Part shown: piece by piece, positions 6,316-40,421 of the stretch | How positions within the stretch are numbered: the stretch's first letter is position 1 | Layout of the letters: every line of letters begins with the position of its first letter | Assembly (NCBI GenBank): GCA_035479295.1 | Contig: DATIIV010000033.1 | Span: 2,901 to 66,900, forward strand | Length of the DNA stretch: 64,000 bases | DNA from: Candidatus Saccharimonadia bacterium | Lineage (GTDB): Bacteria > Patescibacteriota > Saccharimonadia > UBA4664 | Reading direction: 5' to 3' | The notes under the pieces: generated by a model | Seen by the model: only the letters and a program-made list of their open reading frames with translations | Database searches by the model: none | What the model was told of the DNA's origin: nothing | Made by a program: the position numbers and the translations under genes

Positions 6316-7392
6316 ATGAGACTTGCAATTATCGTTGGTACGCGGCCCGAGATCATTAAGATGAGCCCAATTATTGTAGCCTGCCAGGAGCGTGGCCTGG
6401 ACTTCTCGGTTATTAATACCCGACAACATTTTTCGGACAACATGAACACTAGCTTCTTCCACGATCTAGAGCTGCCGCCCCCGGTCTTTACTCTAGAGAC
6501 TGCCTCAGGATCACATGGCACGCAATTTGCCTCCATGCTGCCAAAGCTCGAAGAGCTTTTTGAGACAAATTCCTTTGATATTGTCCTGGTGCAAGGTGAC
6601 ACTAATACGGTATTTGCGGGTGCGTTTATGGCGAGCAGGCAAGGTATTGCCATCGGTCATGTCGAGGCAGGGCTGCGCTCTGGTGATAAGTCAATGCCAG
6701 AAGAAACCAATCGCATAATGGTCGATCATATCGCAGATTTTTGTTTTGCCACGAGCGAGACTACGCTAAACAACCTGCATCTTGAAGGCCTTAAAGGTCC
6801 GCATATCCTCAATGTAGGCAATACGGTAGTTGACGCGACGATGCGCGGACTTGAGCTTGCTCGTCGCTCCGTGGAAAAAGCTGCATTCTCACCACCGAAG
6901 CAGCCCTATATGCTGGTCACTATTCATCGAGCCTCAAATGTCGACAACCCGGAGACACTGCAGGGTATCATGGATGGCATACATGAATCGCTTGAGCGTC
7001 ATGGCTTAGTAGCTATCTTTCCAGTTCATCCGCGAACAAATAAGCAGATCATAGCAAACAACATCAAGCTGCCCAGTAAAATGAAGCTTATAGAGCCTCT
7101 AGGCTACTTGGATTTTTTGCGGCTTCATTCAGGGGCAACTATTATGCTAACCGACTCTGGCGGAGTTCAAGAAGAGGCTTGTATTATGCATGTGCCTTGC
7201 GTGACGGTGCGCGAGAATACCGAACGTCCGGAAACGATTGACATAGGTGCAAATTTGCTAGGAAGGACAGACCCTAAGTCGATCGTTCACGCTGTAGATC
7301 ATATGCTAAAAGCGCCGAAGAACTGGGACATACCCTATGGCGATGGAACTGCTGGCGCAAAGATAGTTGACGCGATCTTAAATTCTAAGTAG
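6316..7392 (+). CDS. wecB: UDP-N-acetylglucosamine 2-epimerase (non-hydrolysing)
   Basis: MRLAIIVGTRPEIIKMSPII... HVEAGLRS... TDSGGVQEEA match the WecB/MnaA signature. About 48% GC, well below the window average. Confidence 0.85.
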   Translation: MRLAIIVGTRPEIIKMSPIIVACQERGLDFSVINTRQHFSDNMNTSFFHDLELPPPVFTLETASGSHGTQFASMLPKLEELFETNSFDIVLVQGDTNTVFAGAFMASRQGIAIGHVEAGLRSGDKSMPEETNRIMVDHIADFCFATSETTLNNLHLEGLKGPHILNVGNTVVDATMRGLELARRSVEKAAFSPPKQPYMLVTIHRASNVDNPETLQGIMDGIHESLERHGLVAIFPVHPRTNKQIIANNIKLPSKMKLIEPLGYLDFLRLHSGATIMLTDSGGVQEEACIMHVPCVTVRENTERPETIDIGANLLGRTDPKSIVHAVDHMLKAPKNWDIPYGDGTAGAKIVDAILNSK

Positions 7393-7419
7393 TTCTCTTC
7401 ATTTTGCTATAATCATGGC

Positions 7420-8208
7420 GTGCCAAAACCTATGCTGCACGCCATACCCGACCATGTACTGTCGGGCACGTTCAAAACCGCTTTTGTGTCTCGATCGGAA
7501 TCAAACTGGGTCGATCAAATCATCGAAAAGCTCAACTGTGACGGTCTTGCTACCTTTGATGGTGTGACCTCCACTGCAGAATTCCTTGAGTTTGCGGCCT
7601 GCTTTGGTGAGGTACGAGTCCATCCTCAGACGGACCAGCACGGCATAACAACTATGACTACAAGCGATAAATACCACATTCAGAGTGGTATTGTAGAGAC
7701 GCCGTTCGCAAAAGAGCAATTGTTCCATACGGATGGGTCAAAGATGGTTGATCCTCCTGGAGTGGTGGCAATTTATTGCGAGGCTCCCGATCCCAACACT
7801 CCGAGAGTCAACGTTTTTGCCCATGGCGGAACTTTGTTTGAGAGGCTGGTCGAGGAGAATCCCAATCTGCTGGAGGTGCTTCGACAGCCGATCGATTTTG
7901 GTGAATTCAGAAGCCCTGTCTTTACAACCCGTGAGGATGGTCTCACTAGCGTCCGTTTTAGGCAGGCGCCTGAACCTCCCAAGATGGATCTTCCCGATGA
8001 AGTTCGCTTTGCGGTTGATGCCAGACTGCGGCAGCCTGATCTGCTACTTGGCGTTACGCTATCTCAGGGGCAAGGTGTTATATTTAATAACCACATTATG
8101 CTCCACGGCCTAGGGAGGTCATTCGGCATAGGTCGGGTTGCAAAGCGGGTTCAGCTTACAACTGGCCCGGATTCGCCAATAAAGGCGGGGTTTAGGCTAC
8201 AAGCCTAG
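7420..8208 (+). CDS. TauD/TfdA-like Fe(II)/2-oxoglutarate-dependent dioxygenase (putative)
   Basis: HTDGS (HxD) followed downstream by HIMLHG, compatible with a 2-His-1-carboxylate facial triad. Low GC. Start is GTG at 7420 or ATG at 7432, immediately after an extended -10 (TGcTATAAT, 7405-7413). Confidence 0.5.
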   Translation: MPKPMLHAIPDHVLSGTFKTAFVSRSESNWVDQIIEKLNCDGLATFDGVTSTAEFLEFAACFGEVRVHPQTDQHGITTMTTSDKYHIQSGIVETPFAKEQLFHTDGSKMVDPPGVVAIYCEAPDPNTPRVNVFAHGGTLFERLVEENPNLLEVLRQPIDFGEFRSPVFTTREDGLTSVRFRQAPEPPKMDLPDEVRFAVDARLRQPDLLLGVTLSQGQGVIFNNHIMLHGLGRSFGIGRVAKRVQLTTGPDSPIKAGFRLQA

Positions 8209-33736: not shown

Positions 33737-33897
33737 GGCAACCCTTCCGAATCAACGTGGTGGGAGAGGTACGGGAACGGCGTAGTTTAGTGTAGCGGCC
33801 GAAGCCCATTTTAGCAACTAAAAAAAATGAAGTGCGGCAGTTGTATGTTAAGCATGAGTGGTATGGGAGTGGCATTTGGCGTATAAATGTAACCATG

Positions 33898-34392
33898 AAG
33901 CGATGGCTTGCGAGGGGAATAATGTGGGGTGTGGCGGCGGCCGCGGGCTGTGGGAGCGGCTGGGCAACGGCCCAGGCGAGCTTGCCGGGTGCCTCGGCCC
34001 AGCCCGGCCGCTGTGTCGCGGTGCAGGCAGCAATTACGCAGCGGGTCGGCACGCTGGGCCAGCAGCAGGCTACGGCCAATGCGGCCCTGCAGCGGTTAGA
34101 TGCCCGACTGACCGACCTGGTGGGTCGGGCTGACGCCCGCGGTTACGATATCGGCCGCCTCCAGGCTGACCAGACTGAGCTAGAGCACCGAGCCGCCGCC
34201 ATCAAGGACGATTATGCCGCGCTCCTGACCGCCACTAAGGCGGCGGCGGCCCAGTGCGGCGCAACCGGATCGTTGGCGCCGGCTCGCGCCAAGCTAGCTC
34301 GCCTGCGCGCTGACGTGGCCGCGCTGCAAACCTGGCGCCAGGCCAGCCTTGCAGTCGATCTGCAGACACTCAGTAAGGCCTCGTCATCATGA
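33898..34392 (+). CDS. Hypothetical secreted coiled-coil protein
   Basis: MKRWLARGIMWGVAAAAGCGSGWATAQA signal/lipobox-like N-terminus, then an Ala/Gln-rich region. Confidence 0.4.
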   Translation, partial: KRWLARGIMWGVAAAAGCGSGWATAQASLPGASAQPGRCVAVQAAITQRVGTLGQQQATANAALQRLDARLTDLVGRADARGYDIGRLQADQTELEHRAAAIKDDYAALLTATKAAAAQCGATGSLAPARAKLARLRADVAALQTWRQASLAVDLQTLSKASSS

Positions 34393-34721
34393 CTCATCAC
34401 CGTACTGCCGCTACTCGGCCTACCGCGGCCGATGTCCTCGAGCCGTCCGCCCCAGTGTCTCATTCAGCTCATCCTCGTCATCGGCCGCACAAGCATCACC
34501 GCGCGCTCACCTGGGTGGTCGCTCTCCTGAGTTCAGCGCTTATCGTGGCGCTGGTCTTGGCCTTTGGCAGTGGTCCGTCCGTACCGCATTTGGTAGCCCC
34601 CAGCGGCTCCATGGCTGGTGATATCAAGGCCGCCAACCTCGGTCTCGGTCAAGATTTTGATCAGCTCTCGGCTGGCCTCCCGACCAACGACCAGCTTAAT
34701 GAAGCCAGCCTAACTCAATAA
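34389..34721 (+). CDS. Hypothetical His/Arg-rich N-terminus plus TM protein
   Basis: ATGA-coupled to the upstream gene. Confidence 0.35.
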   Translation: MTHHRTAATRPTAADVLEPSAPVSHSAHPRHRPHKHHRALTWVVALLSSALIVALVLAFGSGPSVPHLVAPSGSMAGDIKAANLGLGQDFDQLSAGLPTNDQLNEASLTQ

Positions 34722-34803: not shown

Positions 34804-34941
34804 TCAGTCGTCGACACCGGCGATCTTGCGGGTTACAGCGGCGGCCCTTGCGGCGCAGCCACTGCAGATAGTGCCCGCATCCTTTACTTCAACCTGCTTG
34901 CAGTTCTCGTACTTGGGCTTGGCCGGGGGCATATTAACCAT
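34804..34941 (-). CDS. Small Cys-containing peptide (45 aa), hypothetical
   Basis: MVNMPPAKPKYENCKQVEVKDAGTICSGCAARAAAVTRKIAGVDD. It lies 20 nt downstream of the sigma-r4/alpha-CTD-like gene on the same strand, with GGAAG about 10 nt upstream. Not in the ORF track (under 60 aa). Confidence 0.3.
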   Translation of the reverse strand: MVNMPPAKPKYENCKQVEVKDAGTICSGCAARAAAVTRKIAGVDD

Positions 34942-34960: not shown

Positions 34961-36106
34961 TCAGCTAGCAATAATCTCTTCGTCGACAAGCTGGACGAGC
35001 GGGCTCGATGGGTTCTCGCCCCGCAGAGCCAGCCCCTGGTGAAATAGAGCTAGCCGAACTGCATCAAGGTACACGGGACCAAAGCTGGGCCAGGCCTTCA
35101 ACCAGTCGGCCGTCACATCGCGCAGATCCTGCGCCGAGGCGATGTTCATTTTGGCCAACAGCGGTAGAAGCTGATGTTTCAGGTAGCCTCCCAGGGGCGT
35201 CAGCAAATCCTCGATCGGTATATCTCGAGGCGTCGCCAGATACATACTAGCAACTGCCAGTCGGCCTCGTTCCAGCAGGCTTTTGACCGCCCGAGGCGTC
35301 AGACTGGTGGCCTGCGCAATCTCGCCGAGTGGCTGATGGCTCAGCCCGTCAAGGCCGTAGTACAGCTTAAGGACGCGCTGAACCGTCTCGTCCAGCCTGT
35401 TGACCAGACTCAGCCTGGTCTGCCACCAGGCTGGGCTGTAGCAGTTTGGCAGCTCGGGGTTTCGGGCCAGCGTGACCTTTTGTGGCCGCCACACCTCTTC
35501 TCCGGCCAGGGCCAGACCATGATAGCTCAGGCTCACTCGAACGAGGTCGACAAACGCCTTGCTAAAGCCGGGCCAGACGAGAAGCCAGTCTTTGGCGGTG
35601 CCCGTGAGGTCACGAAGGGTATGAATGCCCATGTCGTGAAGCAAGTCCAGAATCCTAGCAGCCTCAAGCTGCCGGTGGGTAGCAAATTTTAGCTCCCGAA
35701 TCGATCGGCAGGCCGACAGCTCATCGGTTGGCCTTGCCTTATCCTGAGCTTGAGCGGCTACATATGCTCGCTGAATCCGCTTTTCGATGGTCCTGCGGCT
35801 TAGCCCAACTTGCCTTTCTAGCTGAAGATAGGTAAGAGCGGGCCCGTCCAGGCCATAATAGCGGCGGATGAGGCTTTGCACCTGGGGGTGAAGTCGCTCG
35901 AGAAGCTCCTGATGTGCCTCCCACCAGCGACCAGTAATCTGCTTGATCTGGGTAGGAGACAGCGTAGGCACAGCACCTGGTCCCTTCGCACATAGAGGCG
36001 TCCCGGACTGGACGCCAGGACGACTATACAATAAATTCCATAGAAAAGTGAAGCAGCATCTCGCCAGGGGCTTATCTATTGCCTGTCCTTGACTCTTCCG
36101 CAGCAA
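34961..36106 (-). CDS. Protein with tandemly duplicated module: sigma-70 region-4-like HTH plus RNAP alpha-subunit C-terminal-domain-like HhH (putative transcription regulator)
   Basis: Module 1 is VQSLIRRYYGLDG...LSRRTIEKRIQRA followed by GIHTLRDL...DWLLVWPGFSKAFVDLVRVSLSYHGLAL. Module 2 is VQRVLKLYYGLDG...LTPRAVKSLLERGR followed by NIASAQDL...DWLKAWPSFGPVYLDAVRLALFHQGLAL. Confidence 0.55.
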   Translation of the reverse strand: MLRKSQGQAIDKPLARCCFTFLWNLLYSRPGVQSGTPLCAKGPGAVPTLSPTQIKQITGRWWEAHQELLERLHPQVQSLIRRYYGLDGPALTYLQLERQVGLSRRTIEKRIQRAYVAAQAQDKARPTDELSACRSIRELKFATHRQLEAARILDLLHDMGIHTLRDLTGTAKDWLLVWPGFSKAFVDLVRVSLSYHGLALAGEEVWRPQKVTLARNPELPNCYSPAWWQTRLSLVNRLDETVQRVLKLYYGLDGLSHQPLGEIAQATSLTPRAVKSLLERGRLAVASMYLATPRDIPIEDLLTPLGGYLKHQLLPLLAKMNIASAQDLRDVTADWLKAWPSFGPVYLDAVRLALFHQGLALRGENPSSPLVQLVDEEIIAS

Positions 36107-36183
36107 TCAGCATATTAAATAAGCCCTCGGATGAGCGCGCTCGAGGCGCCCAGTTTAATCGGAACCAGCAAGGAGCCCCATTT

Positions 36184-36381
36184 ATGGCGGAGATTCCTGA
36201 CGAAGAGACCAGCCCGCGACCTAACCGGTTGACGTTCGAACAACAGCAAGCACGGCAGGCCGCTGCCCCGGTCGATGCCGGTGGGAATCCGCGGCTTCCA
36301 CGCTGCAAGAACTGCGTATGCGGCGGCTGTACCCTCGGCATAGGCTGTGAGGGTTGCACGACCTGTAATCCACCGAGCTAG
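36184..36381 (+). CDS. Leader plus Cys-rich-core small peptide (65 aa), candidate RiPP precursor or metal-binding peptide
   Basis: An AAGGAG SD lies 8 nt upstream of the ATG. MAEIPDEETSPRPNRLTFEQQQARQAAAPVDAGGNPRLPR-CKNCVCGGCTLGIGCEGCTTCNPPS has 7 Cys in the last 25 residues. A terminator follows. Confidence 0.5.
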   Translation: MAEIPDEETSPRPNRLTFEQQQARQAAAPVDAGGNPRLPRCKNCVCGGCTLGIGCEGCTTCNPPS

Positions 36382-36457
36382 TCTGCCGCAGCACACACTG
36401 TCGTAATGATCGCTCGGCGCCGGGTGGCGTCGATTACTAGTTGCGATAGGCTCAGTC

Positions 36458-36492
36458 GGGATTGGGCAAGACCTCGCCCAATCCCGGCTTTT
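36458..36492 (+). terminator. Rho-independent terminator after the Cys-rich peptide gene
   Basis: GGGATTGGGC-aagacctc-GCCCAATCCC followed by GGCTTTTGTT. Confidence 0.5.
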
Positions 36493-36823: not shown

Positions 36824-36899
36824 TGGTAGGCCCGGCTGGATTCGAACCAGCGACCAGTACCTTATAAGAGTACCGCTCTAACCGCTGAGCTACGGGCCC
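36824..36899 (-). tRNA. tRNA-Ile with anticodon TAT (UAU)
   Basis: Reverse complement is GGGCCCGTAGCTCAGCGGTTAGAGCGGTACTCTTATAAGGTACTGGTCGCTGGTTCGAATCCAGCCGGGCCTACCA. It folds as a cloverleaf with anticodon loop CTTATAA, U33, A37 and discriminator A73. Confidence 0.7.

Positions 36900-38612: not shown

Positions 38613-38689
<77 letters not shown>

Positions 38690-40346: not shown

Positions 40347-40421
<75 letters not shown>

What the first reader, a model, noticed from the sequence alone, without database searches (positions are those of the whole stretch)
34961..36106. Protein built from two tandem copies of a sigma-70 region-4-like HTH fused to an RNAP alpha-CTD-like domain
Each copy of an internal duplication of about 130 aa contains a region-4-like HTH (YYGLDG...RRTIEKRIQRA / YYGLDG...PRAVKSLLERGR) followed by an alpha-CTD-like HhH (GIHTLRDL...WPGFSKAFVDLVRVSLSYHGLAL / NIASAQDL...WPSFGPVYLDAVRLALFHQGLAL). 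A protein that mimics two promoter-recognition/UP-element-contact modules of RNAP, but has no sigma regions 1-3, could be a DNA-binding regulator or an RNAP decoy. This domain arrangement is not a standard family.
Basis: inference. Interest (0 to 1): 0.65.

Follow-up and report, generated by a model that had tools for sequence, protein, structure and literature searches.

The report
Tandem sigma-4 and alpha-CTD fusion protein
A 336-residue protein of an uncultured Saccharimonadia bacterium consists only of two copies of a unit joining the promoter-reading domain of sigma factors to a domain like the tail of the RNA polymerase alpha subunit; the domains are real, no other protein found has the doubled layout, and its role (probably DNA-binding gene regulation) is untested.

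Summary
The ORF is real and is NCBI HSX02946.1, annotated only as "sigma-70 region 4 domain-containing protein". Its likely start is GTG 35971, not TTG 36106, giving 336 aa.

The two halves are homologous (32% identity over 149 aa, E=7e-22). Each half has two parts:
- **S:** a full sigma region 4 (4.1+4.2). Pfam scores it above its cut-off; hhalign gives 98.5%.
- **A:** an alpha-CTD-like (HhH)2 domain. Pfam alone scores it below cut-off (E=0.15). It is supported by hhalign (90%, E=1.6e-6), by an exhaustive HMMER search that hits alpha-CTD arrays, and by an AF2 model (pLDDT 88) that superposes on solved alpha-CTDs (TM 0.85-0.88, rmsd 1.6-2.3 Å).

Among 1.84 billion cluster representatives there is no orthologue, and no other S-A-S-A protein turned up. 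About ten clusters carry S and A fused once; all are uncharacterised.

The residues that read the -35 element and the UP element are mostly replaced, so the protein does not simply copy RNAP's specificity.

The most likely function is a single-chain pseudo-dimeric DNA-binding regulator. This is inferred, not shown. An RNAP-binding decoy or modulator remains possible.

Verdict: a new variant of known parts, of moderate interest.

The parts
34961..35971 (-). Gene for the 336-aa S-A-S-A protein (GTG start at 35971; stop codon 34961-34963); = NCBI HSX02946.1
   Evidence: ORF list. Start and length agree with genes called on three contigs. DNA is 100% identical in all three.
35762..35929 (-). S1: sigma-70 region 4 (4.1+4.2) domain of module 1 (residues 15-70)
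   Evidence: Pfam and NCBIfam r4 hits; domain envelopes; hhalign 98.5%; AF2 four-helix domain matching sigma-A chains.
35501..35710 (-). A1: alpha-CTD-like (HhH)2 domain of module 1 (residues 88-157). It has a 7-residue insertion where canonical alpha-CTDs have LSVRS, and its hairpin reads WPGFSK.
   Evidence: Weak Pfam RNA_pol_A_CTD hit (E=0.15); alignment to canonical alpha-CTDs; hhalign 90%; Foldseek TM 0.85-0.88 to solved alpha-CTDs.
35264..35431 (-). S2: sigma-70 region 4 domain of module 2 (residues 181-236)
   Evidence: Best Pfam Sigma70_r4_2 stretch (residues 233-284 of the 381-codon ORF numbering); envelopes; homology to S1.
35018..35224 (-). A2: alpha-CTD-like (HhH)2 domain of module 2 (residues 250-318); hairpin reads WPSFGP
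   Evidence: Homology to A1; envelopes; alignment to canonical alpha-CTDs.
36023..36052 (-). Promoter-like site (TTCACT-18-TATAGT) upstream of the GTG start. It is a consensus match only.
   Evidence: 2 sites found in the region against 0.9 expected.
34804..34941 (-). 45-aa ORF that starts 19 nt after the stop codon, probably co-transcribed; 3 Cys; no family. Its link to the main gene rests on position only.
   Evidence: Called as a gene on all three contigs; no Pfam or NCBIfam hit.
36184..36381 (+). Divergently transcribed 65-aa Cys-rich ORF, a candidate target of regulation by position only
   Evidence: Called as a gene. AAGGAG lies 8 nt before the ATG. Promoter-like TTGACT-16-CATATT at 36089-36116 and a terminator-like hairpin at 36454-36489. 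No family hit.

Best explanation
The gene encodes a soluble 336-aa protein with the layout S1-A1-S2-A2. S is a complete sigma-70 region 4 (helices 4.1 and the 4.2 helix-turn-helix). A is an alpha-CTD-like double helix-hairpin-helix domain. The layout arose by tandem duplication of an S-linker-A unit that occurs singly in a few other uncultured bacteria and phage-like contigs. Those points are shown. The following is inferred. The protein is a DNA-binding transcription regulator in which the duplication replaces dimerisation. The two basic S domains (pI about 10) each insert a recognition helix into the major groove, and their recognition helices differ, so the target is an asymmetric, direct-repeat-like site. 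The A domains, joined by flexible linkers of about 20 residues, add backbone or minor-groove contacts through their P-G/S-F-G/S hairpins, or they contact other proteins. Because the residues RNAP uses to read TTGACA and the UP element are mostly replaced, the protein reads its own sites rather than competing generally for promoters. The nearest candidate targets are its own promoter and the divergent Cys-rich small gene.
For: Domain identities. Duplication. Collinear homology of a whole module to single S-A proteins: P0043 E=2e-10, P0069 3e-8, P0100 1e-6, each covering S, linker and A (alignments). No sigma r2 or r3 and no alpha N-terminal domain, so the protein cannot be a sigma factor or an alpha subunit. 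S1 has net charge +5 (pI 10.1) and S2 +3 (pI 9.8); A1 has pI 8.5 and A2 pI 6.0. In the AF2 model both domains are confident while the linker is weaker (block pLDDT 72) and pTM is 0.53, as expected for beads on a string. Both domain families are DNA binders in every characterised setting (established knowledge; solved together on DNA in PDB 3N97, listed). Divergent arrangement with a small gene and promoter-like sites in the 212-bp spacer.
Against: There is no experimental or comparative evidence for DNA binding by this protein. The E. coli alpha-CTD DNA determinant (R265, N268, N294, G296, K298, S299) survives only as R265 in A1 and G296 in A2. A 7-residue insertion extends helix 1 exactly at that determinant. 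Of the sigma-70 residues that read the -35 element (R584, E585, R586, R588, Q589), only R584 is kept, and only in S1 (alignment; the residue roles come from my own knowledge). A2 is neutral to acidic. No significant repeat that could serve as an operator was found in the spacer (at chance level). There are no orthologues, so neither conservation of the gene nor conservation of a site can be checked.
Confidence: 0.45

Rival explanations
1. RNAP-associated modulator or decoy. The free S domains dock on the beta-flap tip, where sigma region 4 normally sits, or the A domains bind partners of the real alpha-CTD (activators, NusA-like HhH repeats). The protein would thereby compete with sigma or alpha and retune transcription without binding DNA itself.
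For: The protein is made only of the two RNAP modules that engage upstream promoter DNA and activators. DNA-reading residues are largely replaced in both domain types, and A2 is acidic, as expected if protein contacts were the selected function. Phages and phage-like contigs also carry small sigma-4 and/or alpha-CTD proteins. By general knowledge of phage biology, not tested here, that would fit host-RNAP manipulation.
Against: No test of RNAP binding is possible with these tools. The alpha '261 determinant' that touches sigma is not kept (E261 becomes K in A1 and L in A2). The S domains remain strongly basic, which suggests nucleic-acid contact. The gene sits in a housekeeping chromosomal region, not in a phage or defence island.
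Confidence: 0.2
2. Architectural or nucleoid-associated protein. Four weak, largely sequence-independent DNA-binding domains on flexible linkers bridge or wrap DNA, in the manner of the long homotypic S(n) and A(n) arrays found as distant relatives.
For: Most relatives found by the exhaustive search are arrays of 2 to 13 S or A domains, which suggests avidity-based binding. The hairpins P-G-F-S and P-S-F-G resemble the generic HhH motif that contacts phosphates non-specifically (my own knowledge of HhH motifs). The linkers are flexible.
Against: The protein has only four domains. Expression level is unknown. Nothing is known about the function of the array proteins either.
Confidence: 0.15
3. 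The region-4 half of a split (two-subunit) sigma factor, working with a separately encoded region-2 partner as in Bacillus YvrI/YvrHa or SigO/RsoA.
For: It carries region 4 without region 2, and a small ORF is co-oriented 19 nt downstream.
Against: Two region-4 copies and two alpha-CTD-like domains are not expected in such a system. None of the neighbouring small ORFs (45, 65, 67, 110 and 156 aa) matches Sigma70_r2 or any other family, and 45 aa is too short to form region 2.
Confidence: 0.05
4. A lineage-specific gene with no current function, either decaying or spurious.
For: It is a singleton cluster with no orthologue in 15 billion proteins. All copies are identical, so selection cannot be measured.
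Against: After an old duplication (32% identity) both copies keep the hydrophobic cores and signature motifs of both folds and an open frame of 336 codons. The AF2 model is confident. The start codon has a plausible ribosome-binding site and promoter.
Confidence: 0.07

Closest known systems
Single-unit sigma-4 + alpha-CTD fusion proteins (uncharacterised; e.g. P0043/P0100, named by JGI 'Sigma-70, region 4/Bacterial RNA polymerase, alpha chain C terminal domain', plus P0069, P0102, P0096, P0202, P0199)
   Same: Collinear S-linker-A unit. Pairwise alignments cover both domains at 24-28% identity. P0043 and P0100 share the non-canonical P-G-F-G hairpin and also lack the R265 equivalent.
   Different: They carry one unit, not two. 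P0100, P0069 and P0102 have an extra conserved N-terminal domain of about 90 aa that is absent here. Several keep canonical RpoD-like and RpoA-like DNA-contact residues. None has a known function.
Sigma-70 family region 4 (Pfam PF04545/PF08281; e.g. sigma-A domain 4 in PDB 4XLP and 9UKO)
   Same: Four-helix fold with the 4.2 helix-turn-helix. The 'Y/F-G-L-D-G' signature of group 1-3 sigma factors is present. Pfam scores exceed the cut-offs.
   Different: No regions 1.2-3, so there is no core-binding or -10 function. The domain is present twice. The -35-reading residues are mostly replaced.
RNA polymerase alpha subunit C-terminal domain (Pfam PF03118; PDB 1Z3E_B, 1LB2, 3K4G)
   Same: (HhH)2 fold, TM 0.85-0.88 and rmsd 1.6-2.3 Å in the model. 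The conserved core pattern I..L...L...GI....DL......L...P.(F/L)G.......L...GL.L is present.
   Different: It is not attached to an alpha N-terminal domain. It falls below the Pfam cut-off (12.3 against 23.8 bits). It has a 7-residue insertion in helix 1. The 265 and 261 determinants are largely lost. It has a Trp-rich 'DWL..WP.F' motif of its own.
Alpha-CTD and sigma region 4 bound side by side on UP-element/-35 DNA (PDB 3N97)
   Same: The same two domain types act together on adjacent DNA. Here they are linked covalently in one chain.
   Different: In RNAP they belong to different subunits and touch through alpha D259/E261 and sigma R603. Those residues are not conserved here, and no S-A interface is confidently predicted (pTM 0.53).
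Homotypic arrays of sigma-4 or alpha-CTD domains (P0002-P0042 and others; uncharacterised)
   Same: The same two domains are used as repeated modules outside RNAP.
   Different: The arrays contain only one domain type (2-13 copies). Some have signal-like N-termini, or sigma r2 plus TPR. None alternates S and A.

Membership tests
Sigma-70 family sigma factor | Region 2 (core binding, -10 recognition) | tested here: not met
   No Sigma70_r2 hit even at E<=10. TIGR02937 scores 27.7 bits against a cut-off of 42.9 and matches only model positions 112-158, which are region 4.
Sigma-70 family sigma factor | Region 4 (4.1 + 4.2 HTH) | tested here: met
   PF08281 33.5 bits (cut-off 25.7) and PF04545 25.4 bits (cut-off 24.1), two stretches each. 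hhalign 98.5%. Structural match to sigma-A chains.
RNA polymerase alpha subunit | N-terminal dimerisation/assembly domain (RNA_pol_L / RNA_pol_A_bac) | tested here: not met
   No such Pfam hit. True RpoA fragments carry PF01000/PF01193; this protein does not.
RNA_pol_A_CTD domain family (PF03118) | Score above the Pfam gathering threshold | tested here: not met
   12.3 bits against 23.8, E=0.15, one stretch in module 1 only.
RNA_pol_A_CTD domain family (PF03118) | Homology by profile-profile comparison and (HhH)2 fold | tested here: met
   hhalign 90%, E=1.6e-6, with cross-controls at 0.2% and 1.2%. The profile of the two halves retrieves alpha-CTD arrays at E down to 2e-24. Top PDB sequence hits of the two-half profile are SigB r4 and alpha-CTD (E about 0.3-0.5). 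Foldseek TM 0.85-0.88. Caveat: the MSA used for AF2 contained canonical alpha-CTDs.
RNA_pol_A_CTD domain family (PF03118) | UP-element DNA-binding determinant (E. coli R265, N268, N294, G296, K298, S299) | tested here: not met
   By alignment, A1 has R, D, G, S, A, F at these positions and A2 has Q, P, S, G, V, Y. The residue roles come from my own knowledge of the E. coli literature.
Single-unit S-A fusion proteins (unnamed group) | Collinear sigma-4, linker, alpha-CTD in one chain | tested here: met
   tblastn alignments of P0043, P0069 and P0100 span S through A of module 1, and also of module 2 for P0069 and P0100.
Single-unit S-A fusion proteins (unnamed group) | Conserved N-terminal domain of about 90 aa (P0100, P0069, P0102) | tested here: not met
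   The protein starts about 14 residues before S1. The alignment shows that domain only in the relatives.
Split two-subunit sigma (YvrI/YvrHa, SigO/RsoA type) | Adjacent partner gene encoding region 2 | tested here: not met
   The neighbouring small ORFs match no Sigma70_r2 or other family.
DNA-binding transcription regulator (functional class) | Specific binding to an operator | not testable with these tools
   No orthologous loci exist for phylogenetic footprinting. Repeats in the spacer are at chance level.

The most novel reading that the evidence does not exclude
The protein is a free-standing, single-chain mimic of the alpha-CTD/sigma-4 pair that RNAP places on upstream promoter DNA, present twice. 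It would represent an unrecognised class of regulators built from RNAP's own promoter-contact modules. Such regulators would act by pre-occupying or bridging upstream promoter regions, or by capturing the partners of sigma-4 and alpha-CTD (beta-flap, activators), in a reduced-genome CPR bacterium that has few conventional regulators. The single-unit S-A proteins and the long S(n) and A(n) arrays would then belong to the same unexplored toolkit.
Probability: 0.15. Interest if true: 0.75.

Novelty: new variant of a known kind. Interest (0 to 1): 0.45.

Why it matters
Sigma region 4 and the alpha-CTD are the two RNAP modules that read upstream promoter DNA and receive most activator contacts. A protein made only of these two modules, in alternation, shows that bacteria reuse them outside RNAP. 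It also gives a compact test case of four small domains and 336 aa. With it one can ask whether such fusions bind DNA, RNAP or activators. The search also revealed a wider, uncharacterised set of proteins: single S-A fusions, and arrays of up to 13 sigma-4 or alpha-CTD domains, some with signal-like N-termini. Current annotation reduces these to "sigma-70 region 4 domain-containing" or "alpha C-terminal domain-containing". For Saccharimonadia, which have small genomes, any lineage-specific transcription factor is useful for understanding regulation. On present evidence, though, this is one orphan gene in one population, with no functional data.

Tried and rejected
- **Single-sequence AF2 of the whole protein.** The model was unusable (pLDDT 41). 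It was replaced by a module-level model built on a 52-row alignment.
- **Word-index homologue search with the full protein.** It found only the protein itself.
- **Genome-contig scans** with the two-half alignment and with the protein: no relative in 185,579 species representatives.
- **Metagenome scan.** With the S-A family alignment it returned only an actinobacterial RpoD.
- **Literature searches** for sigma-4/alpha-CTD fusions or alpha-CTD-like domains: nothing relevant.
- **Operator search in the 212-bp divergent spacer.** It found three 9-mer direct repeats with at most one mismatch, against about 2.4 expected by my estimate, plus short inverted repeats. I rejected these as evidence.
- **Taxonomic placement of the S-A relatives' contigs** through named cluster members: no organism names were obtained.
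- **Selection analysis.** It is impossible because all three contigs are 100% identical.
- **Pfam 'GxGYxYP_N_2nd' hit** (E=3e-4, below cut-off). I dismissed it because the same model also cross-hits genuine alpha-CTD arrays.
- **Mobile-element origin.** A tRNA-Ile is adjacent, but no integrase or phage genes are present and the GC content is unremarkable.
Full report
**1. The observation**

The gene model used in public assemblies is shorter. It starts at GTG 35971 and gives 336 aa (P0001 = NCBI HSX02946.1, [quoted passage not shown]). That start is preceded by GAAGGGA. I therefore take 34961-35971 as the gene.

BLASTP of the two halves gives 32% identity over 149 residues, E=7e-22, with 49 invariant columns. 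The repeat unit is about 150-165 aa rather than about 130. The locus is 100% identical in an NCBI MAG contig and two Logan assemblies, so the long frame is not an assembly artefact.

**2. Domain identities**

Pfam places Sigma70_r4_2 (33.5 bits, cut-off 25.7) and Sigma70_r4 (25.4 bits, cut-off 24.1) in both halves. RNA_pol_A_CTD reaches only 12.3 bits (E=0.15) in module 1. NCBIfam sigma models match only through their region-4 ends, and all fall below their cut-offs. There is no region 2 or 3 and no alpha N-terminal domain.

A profile of the two halves (A1) was run with HMMER against 1.84 billion cluster representatives. It gave 99 hits at E<=1e-3. The C-terminal part of the profile (positions about 105-160) matched proteins that Pfam scores as strong RNA_pol_A_CTD arrays (for example P0003, 452 bits in 11 stretches). 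The N-terminal part matched Sigma70_r4 arrays.

hhalign gave these results:

| Comparison | Probability | E-value |
|---|---|---|
| Our two A segments vs 19 canonical alpha-CTDs | 90% | 1.6e-6 |
| Our two S segments vs 27 canonical region-4 segments | 98.5% | 2.8e-15 |
| Cross-comparison A vs region 4 | 0.2% | 0.29 |
| Cross-comparison S vs alpha-CTD | 1.2% | 0.044 |

Against PDB sequences, the two-half profile alone puts SigB region 4 and three alpha-subunit chains (matched over their C-terminal domain) among its five weak top hits (E 0.3-0.5).

AF2 on module 1 with a 52-row alignment gave mean pLDDT 88.4. It shows a four-helix N-terminal domain, a linker of lower confidence, and a helical C-terminal domain. 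Foldseek against PDB returned alpha-CTD chains (1z3e_B TM 0.88, rmsd 1.6 Å; 1lb2_E TM 0.85, rmsd 2.3 Å) and sigma-A chains (4xlp_F, 4g7h_F, 9uko_F; rmsd 2.0-3.4 Å over about 80 columns). The alignment fed to AF2 contained canonical members of both families. The model therefore corroborates the sequence inference but is not independent of it.

The layout in 336-aa numbering is S1 15-70, A1 88-157, S2 181-236, A2 250-318.

**3. How unusual the layout is**

No orthologue exists in the collections searched. The word-index search found only the protein itself. After the self-hit at 606 bits, the exhaustive search drops to 102 bits, and that score is spread over eight repeats. Two scans of 185,579 species-representative genomes found nothing.

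I mapped S and A domains on all 276 retrieved proteins. Most are homotypic arrays, S(n) or A(n), with up to 13 copies. S-A-S-A occurs once, in this protein.

The single S-A unit does recur:
- P0043, P0100, P0069, P0102, P0096, P0202 and P0199 are S-A.
- P0061 is S-A-A.
- P0032 is S-A5.
- P0211 has the reverse order, A-S.

P0043, P0069 and P0100 align to a whole module, S through A, at 24-28% identity (E 2e-10 to 1e-6 in a window-sized search). They are true relatives of the unit. P0100, P0069 and P0102 share an additional N-terminal domain that this protein lacks.

JGI already labels P0100 [quoted passage not shown], so the fusion has been seen by annotation pipelines. Four literature searches found no study of it. 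An S-A-like protein also occurs on a human-gut phage contig (MT837876.1). BFVD holds phage proteins of 128-139 aa, annotated as alpha-CTD, that align over most of the module.

**4. Residue-level reading**

This part combines the alignments with residue roles taken from my own knowledge of the E. coli literature.

*Sigma-70 residues that read the -35 element:*

| Sigma-70 residue | S1 | S2 |
|---|---|---|
| R584 | R (kept) | P |
| E585 | R | R |
| R586 | T | A |
| R588 | E | K |
| Q589 | K | S |

The two recognition helices differ from sigma-70 and from each other.

*Alpha-CTD residues of the UP-element determinant:*

| Alpha-CTD residue | A1 | A2 |
|---|---|---|
| R265 | R (kept) | Q |
| N268 | D | P |
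| N294 | G | S |
| G296 | S | G (kept) |
| K298 | A | V |
| S299 | F | Y |

- Both A domains carry a 6-7-residue insertion where canonical domains have LSVRS. AF2 models it as an N-terminal extension of helix 1 (H97-112).
- The second hairpin reads WPGFSK in A1 and WPSFGP in A2. This resembles the generic HhH P-G-h-G motif, and P0043 and P0100 share it as LPGFGV.
- The alpha 261 determinant, which touches sigma, is K in A1 and L in A2.
- S1 and S2 are basic (pI 10.1 and 9.8). A1 is mildly basic (pI 8.5) and A2 slightly acidic (pI 6.0).

The protein is therefore not a faithful copy of RNAP's UP/-35 reader. If it binds DNA, it binds with its own specificity and mainly through the S domains.

**5. 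Context**

The window is ordinary chromosome. It carries the following genes:
- ATP synthase, an ABC-2 transporter, DsbA/DsbB and a CDF transporter.
- DivIC, a bactofilin-domain protein, FtsH, MurJ, Ddl and two FemAB genes.
- LepA, DnaK and DnaJ.

The gene lies in an islet of about 3 kb between the CDF transporter gene and tRNA-Ile(UAU). All ORFs in the islet lack family hits. They are:
- a 67-aa ORF;
- a divergent 65-aa Cys-rich ORF (36184-36381, strong Shine-Dalgarno sequence, terminator-like hairpin);
- the S-A-S-A gene;
- a 45-aa ORF that starts 19 nt downstream of it;
- a convergent pair encoding 156-aa and 110-aa products. The 110-aa product has a hydrophobic stretch that could be a membrane anchor; the 156-aa product shows only sub-threshold coiled-coil-type matches.

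There is no integrase or phage gene and no GC anomaly. Repeats in the 212-bp spacer are no more frequent than chance. Rfam finds only the tRNAs.

The S-A relatives sit in housekeeping neighbourhoods too. P0102 lies between clpC and radA-yacL, downstream of nusA. P0043 lies near a ClpC-like AAA protein, a DEAD helicase and topA, and a second sigma-4 fusion (Sigma70_r4 + HARE-HTH) is nearby. None of these has a Cys-rich small ORF next to it, so the proposed peptide link is unsupported.

**6. Mechanism**

*Shown:*
- The domain composition.
- The tandem duplication.
- The absence of the RNAP-assembly parts.
- The flexible linkers.

*Inferred, and my best explanation (confidence about 0.45):* the protein is a single-chain pseudo-dimeric DNA-binding regulator. 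Its two non-identical sigma-4 HTH domains would read an asymmetric, direct-repeat-like site. The A domains would add backbone or minor-groove contacts, or protein contacts. Its own promoter and the divergent small gene are the obvious first targets to test.

*Rivals:*
- An RNAP-binding modulator or decoy that uses the sigma-4/beta-flap or alpha-CTD/partner surfaces (0.2). The loss of DNA-reading residues favours it; the basic S domains and the housekeeping context count against it.
- A non-specific architectural protein, by analogy with the arrays (0.15).
- The region-4 half of a split sigma factor (0.05). No region-2 partner was found.
- A functionless orphan (0.07). Against this, both folds have been preserved after an old duplication.

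**7. Verdict**

It is a new arrangement of two well-known domains, so I rate it a new variant of a known kind. No orthologue exists and no other protein with this arrangement was found; it is related to a small, unstudied group of single S-A fusions.

Interest is moderate (0.45). The architecture is striking and easy to test, but it rests on one orphan gene with no functional evidence. Its key contact residues differ from those that would make it a literal RNAP mimic.

Noticed in passing
window 36184-36381 (+): A 65-aa ORF transcribed divergently from the target. AAGGAG lies 8 nt before its ATG, and a terminator-like hairpin follows at 36454-36489. Seven Cys fall in the last 24 residues (CKNCVCGGCTLGIGCEGCTTCNPPS) after a Pro/Gln/Ala-rich leader-like part, which suggests a RiPP-precursor-like or metallothionein-like peptide. 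It has no Pfam or NCBIfam hit, and no modification enzymes lie within 10 kb. DsbA/DsbB and a CDF metal transporter are nearby.
   Followed up: partly
window 34804-34941 (-): A 45-aa ORF (MVNMPPAKPKYENCKQVEVKDAGTICSGCAARAAAVTRKIAGVDD) that starts 19 nt after the target's stop codon. It is called as a gene on all three contigs, has 3 Cys including a CxxC, and matches no family. It is probably co-transcribed with the target.
   Followed up: partly
window 36824-36899 (-); also 38613-38689 (+) and 40347-40421 (+): A tRNA-Ile with anticodon UAU, an uncommon way for bacteria to read AUA, borders the islet of unannotated small ORFs. Two tRNA-Met(CAU) genes follow within 4 kb; one of them could be an Ile2 or an initiator tRNA.
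   Followed up: no
window 33832-34721 (+): Two overlapping ORFs (186/156 aa and 110 aa; the second has a His/Pro/Arg-rich N-terminus followed by a hydrophobic, possibly membrane-spanning stretch) converge on the target operon. Neither matches any family.
   Followed up: no
proteins P0003, P0014, P0025 (distant relatives, not in the window): Arrays of 3 to 12 canonical alpha-CTD domains that begin with signal-peptide-like hydrophobic N-termini. This suggests secreted or exported alpha-CTD repeat proteins.
   Followed up: no
proteins P0010, P0016, P0004, P0007 (distant relatives): Very long proteins (749-1706 aa) with 4 to 11 tandem sigma region-4 domains. P0010 and P0016 also carry a sigma region 2, and P0010 carries TPR repeats, so these look like sigma-like proteins with multiplied region 4.
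   Followed up: partly
proteins P0158-P0179 (distant relatives): A coherent family of 270-280 aa with an N-terminal Cys-rich zinc-ribbon-like segment followed by two near-canonical alpha-CTD domains. No source gives it a functional name.
   Followed up: no
L004 6001-6696 and L005, L006: The single-unit S-A protein P0102 sits between a clpC-like gene and radA-yacL (PIN/TRAM), downstream of nusA. The arrangement is conserved on 17 contigs. P0043 (L007, L008) also lies near a ClpC-like AAA gene, and L008 encodes a second sigma-4 fusion (Sigma70_r4 + HARE-HTH, 372 aa) at 6429-7547.
   Followed up: partly
phage record MT837876.1 1287-1808 (hit H1); BFVD A0A6J5QDR9, A0A6J5MNY7: A human-gut phage contig encodes a protein that matches 83% of the S-A protein P0199. 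Small phage proteins annotated 'RNA polymerase alpha subunit C-terminal' align structurally over 126-139 columns of the module. Phages may therefore carry HTH plus alpha-CTD fusions.
   Followed up: no
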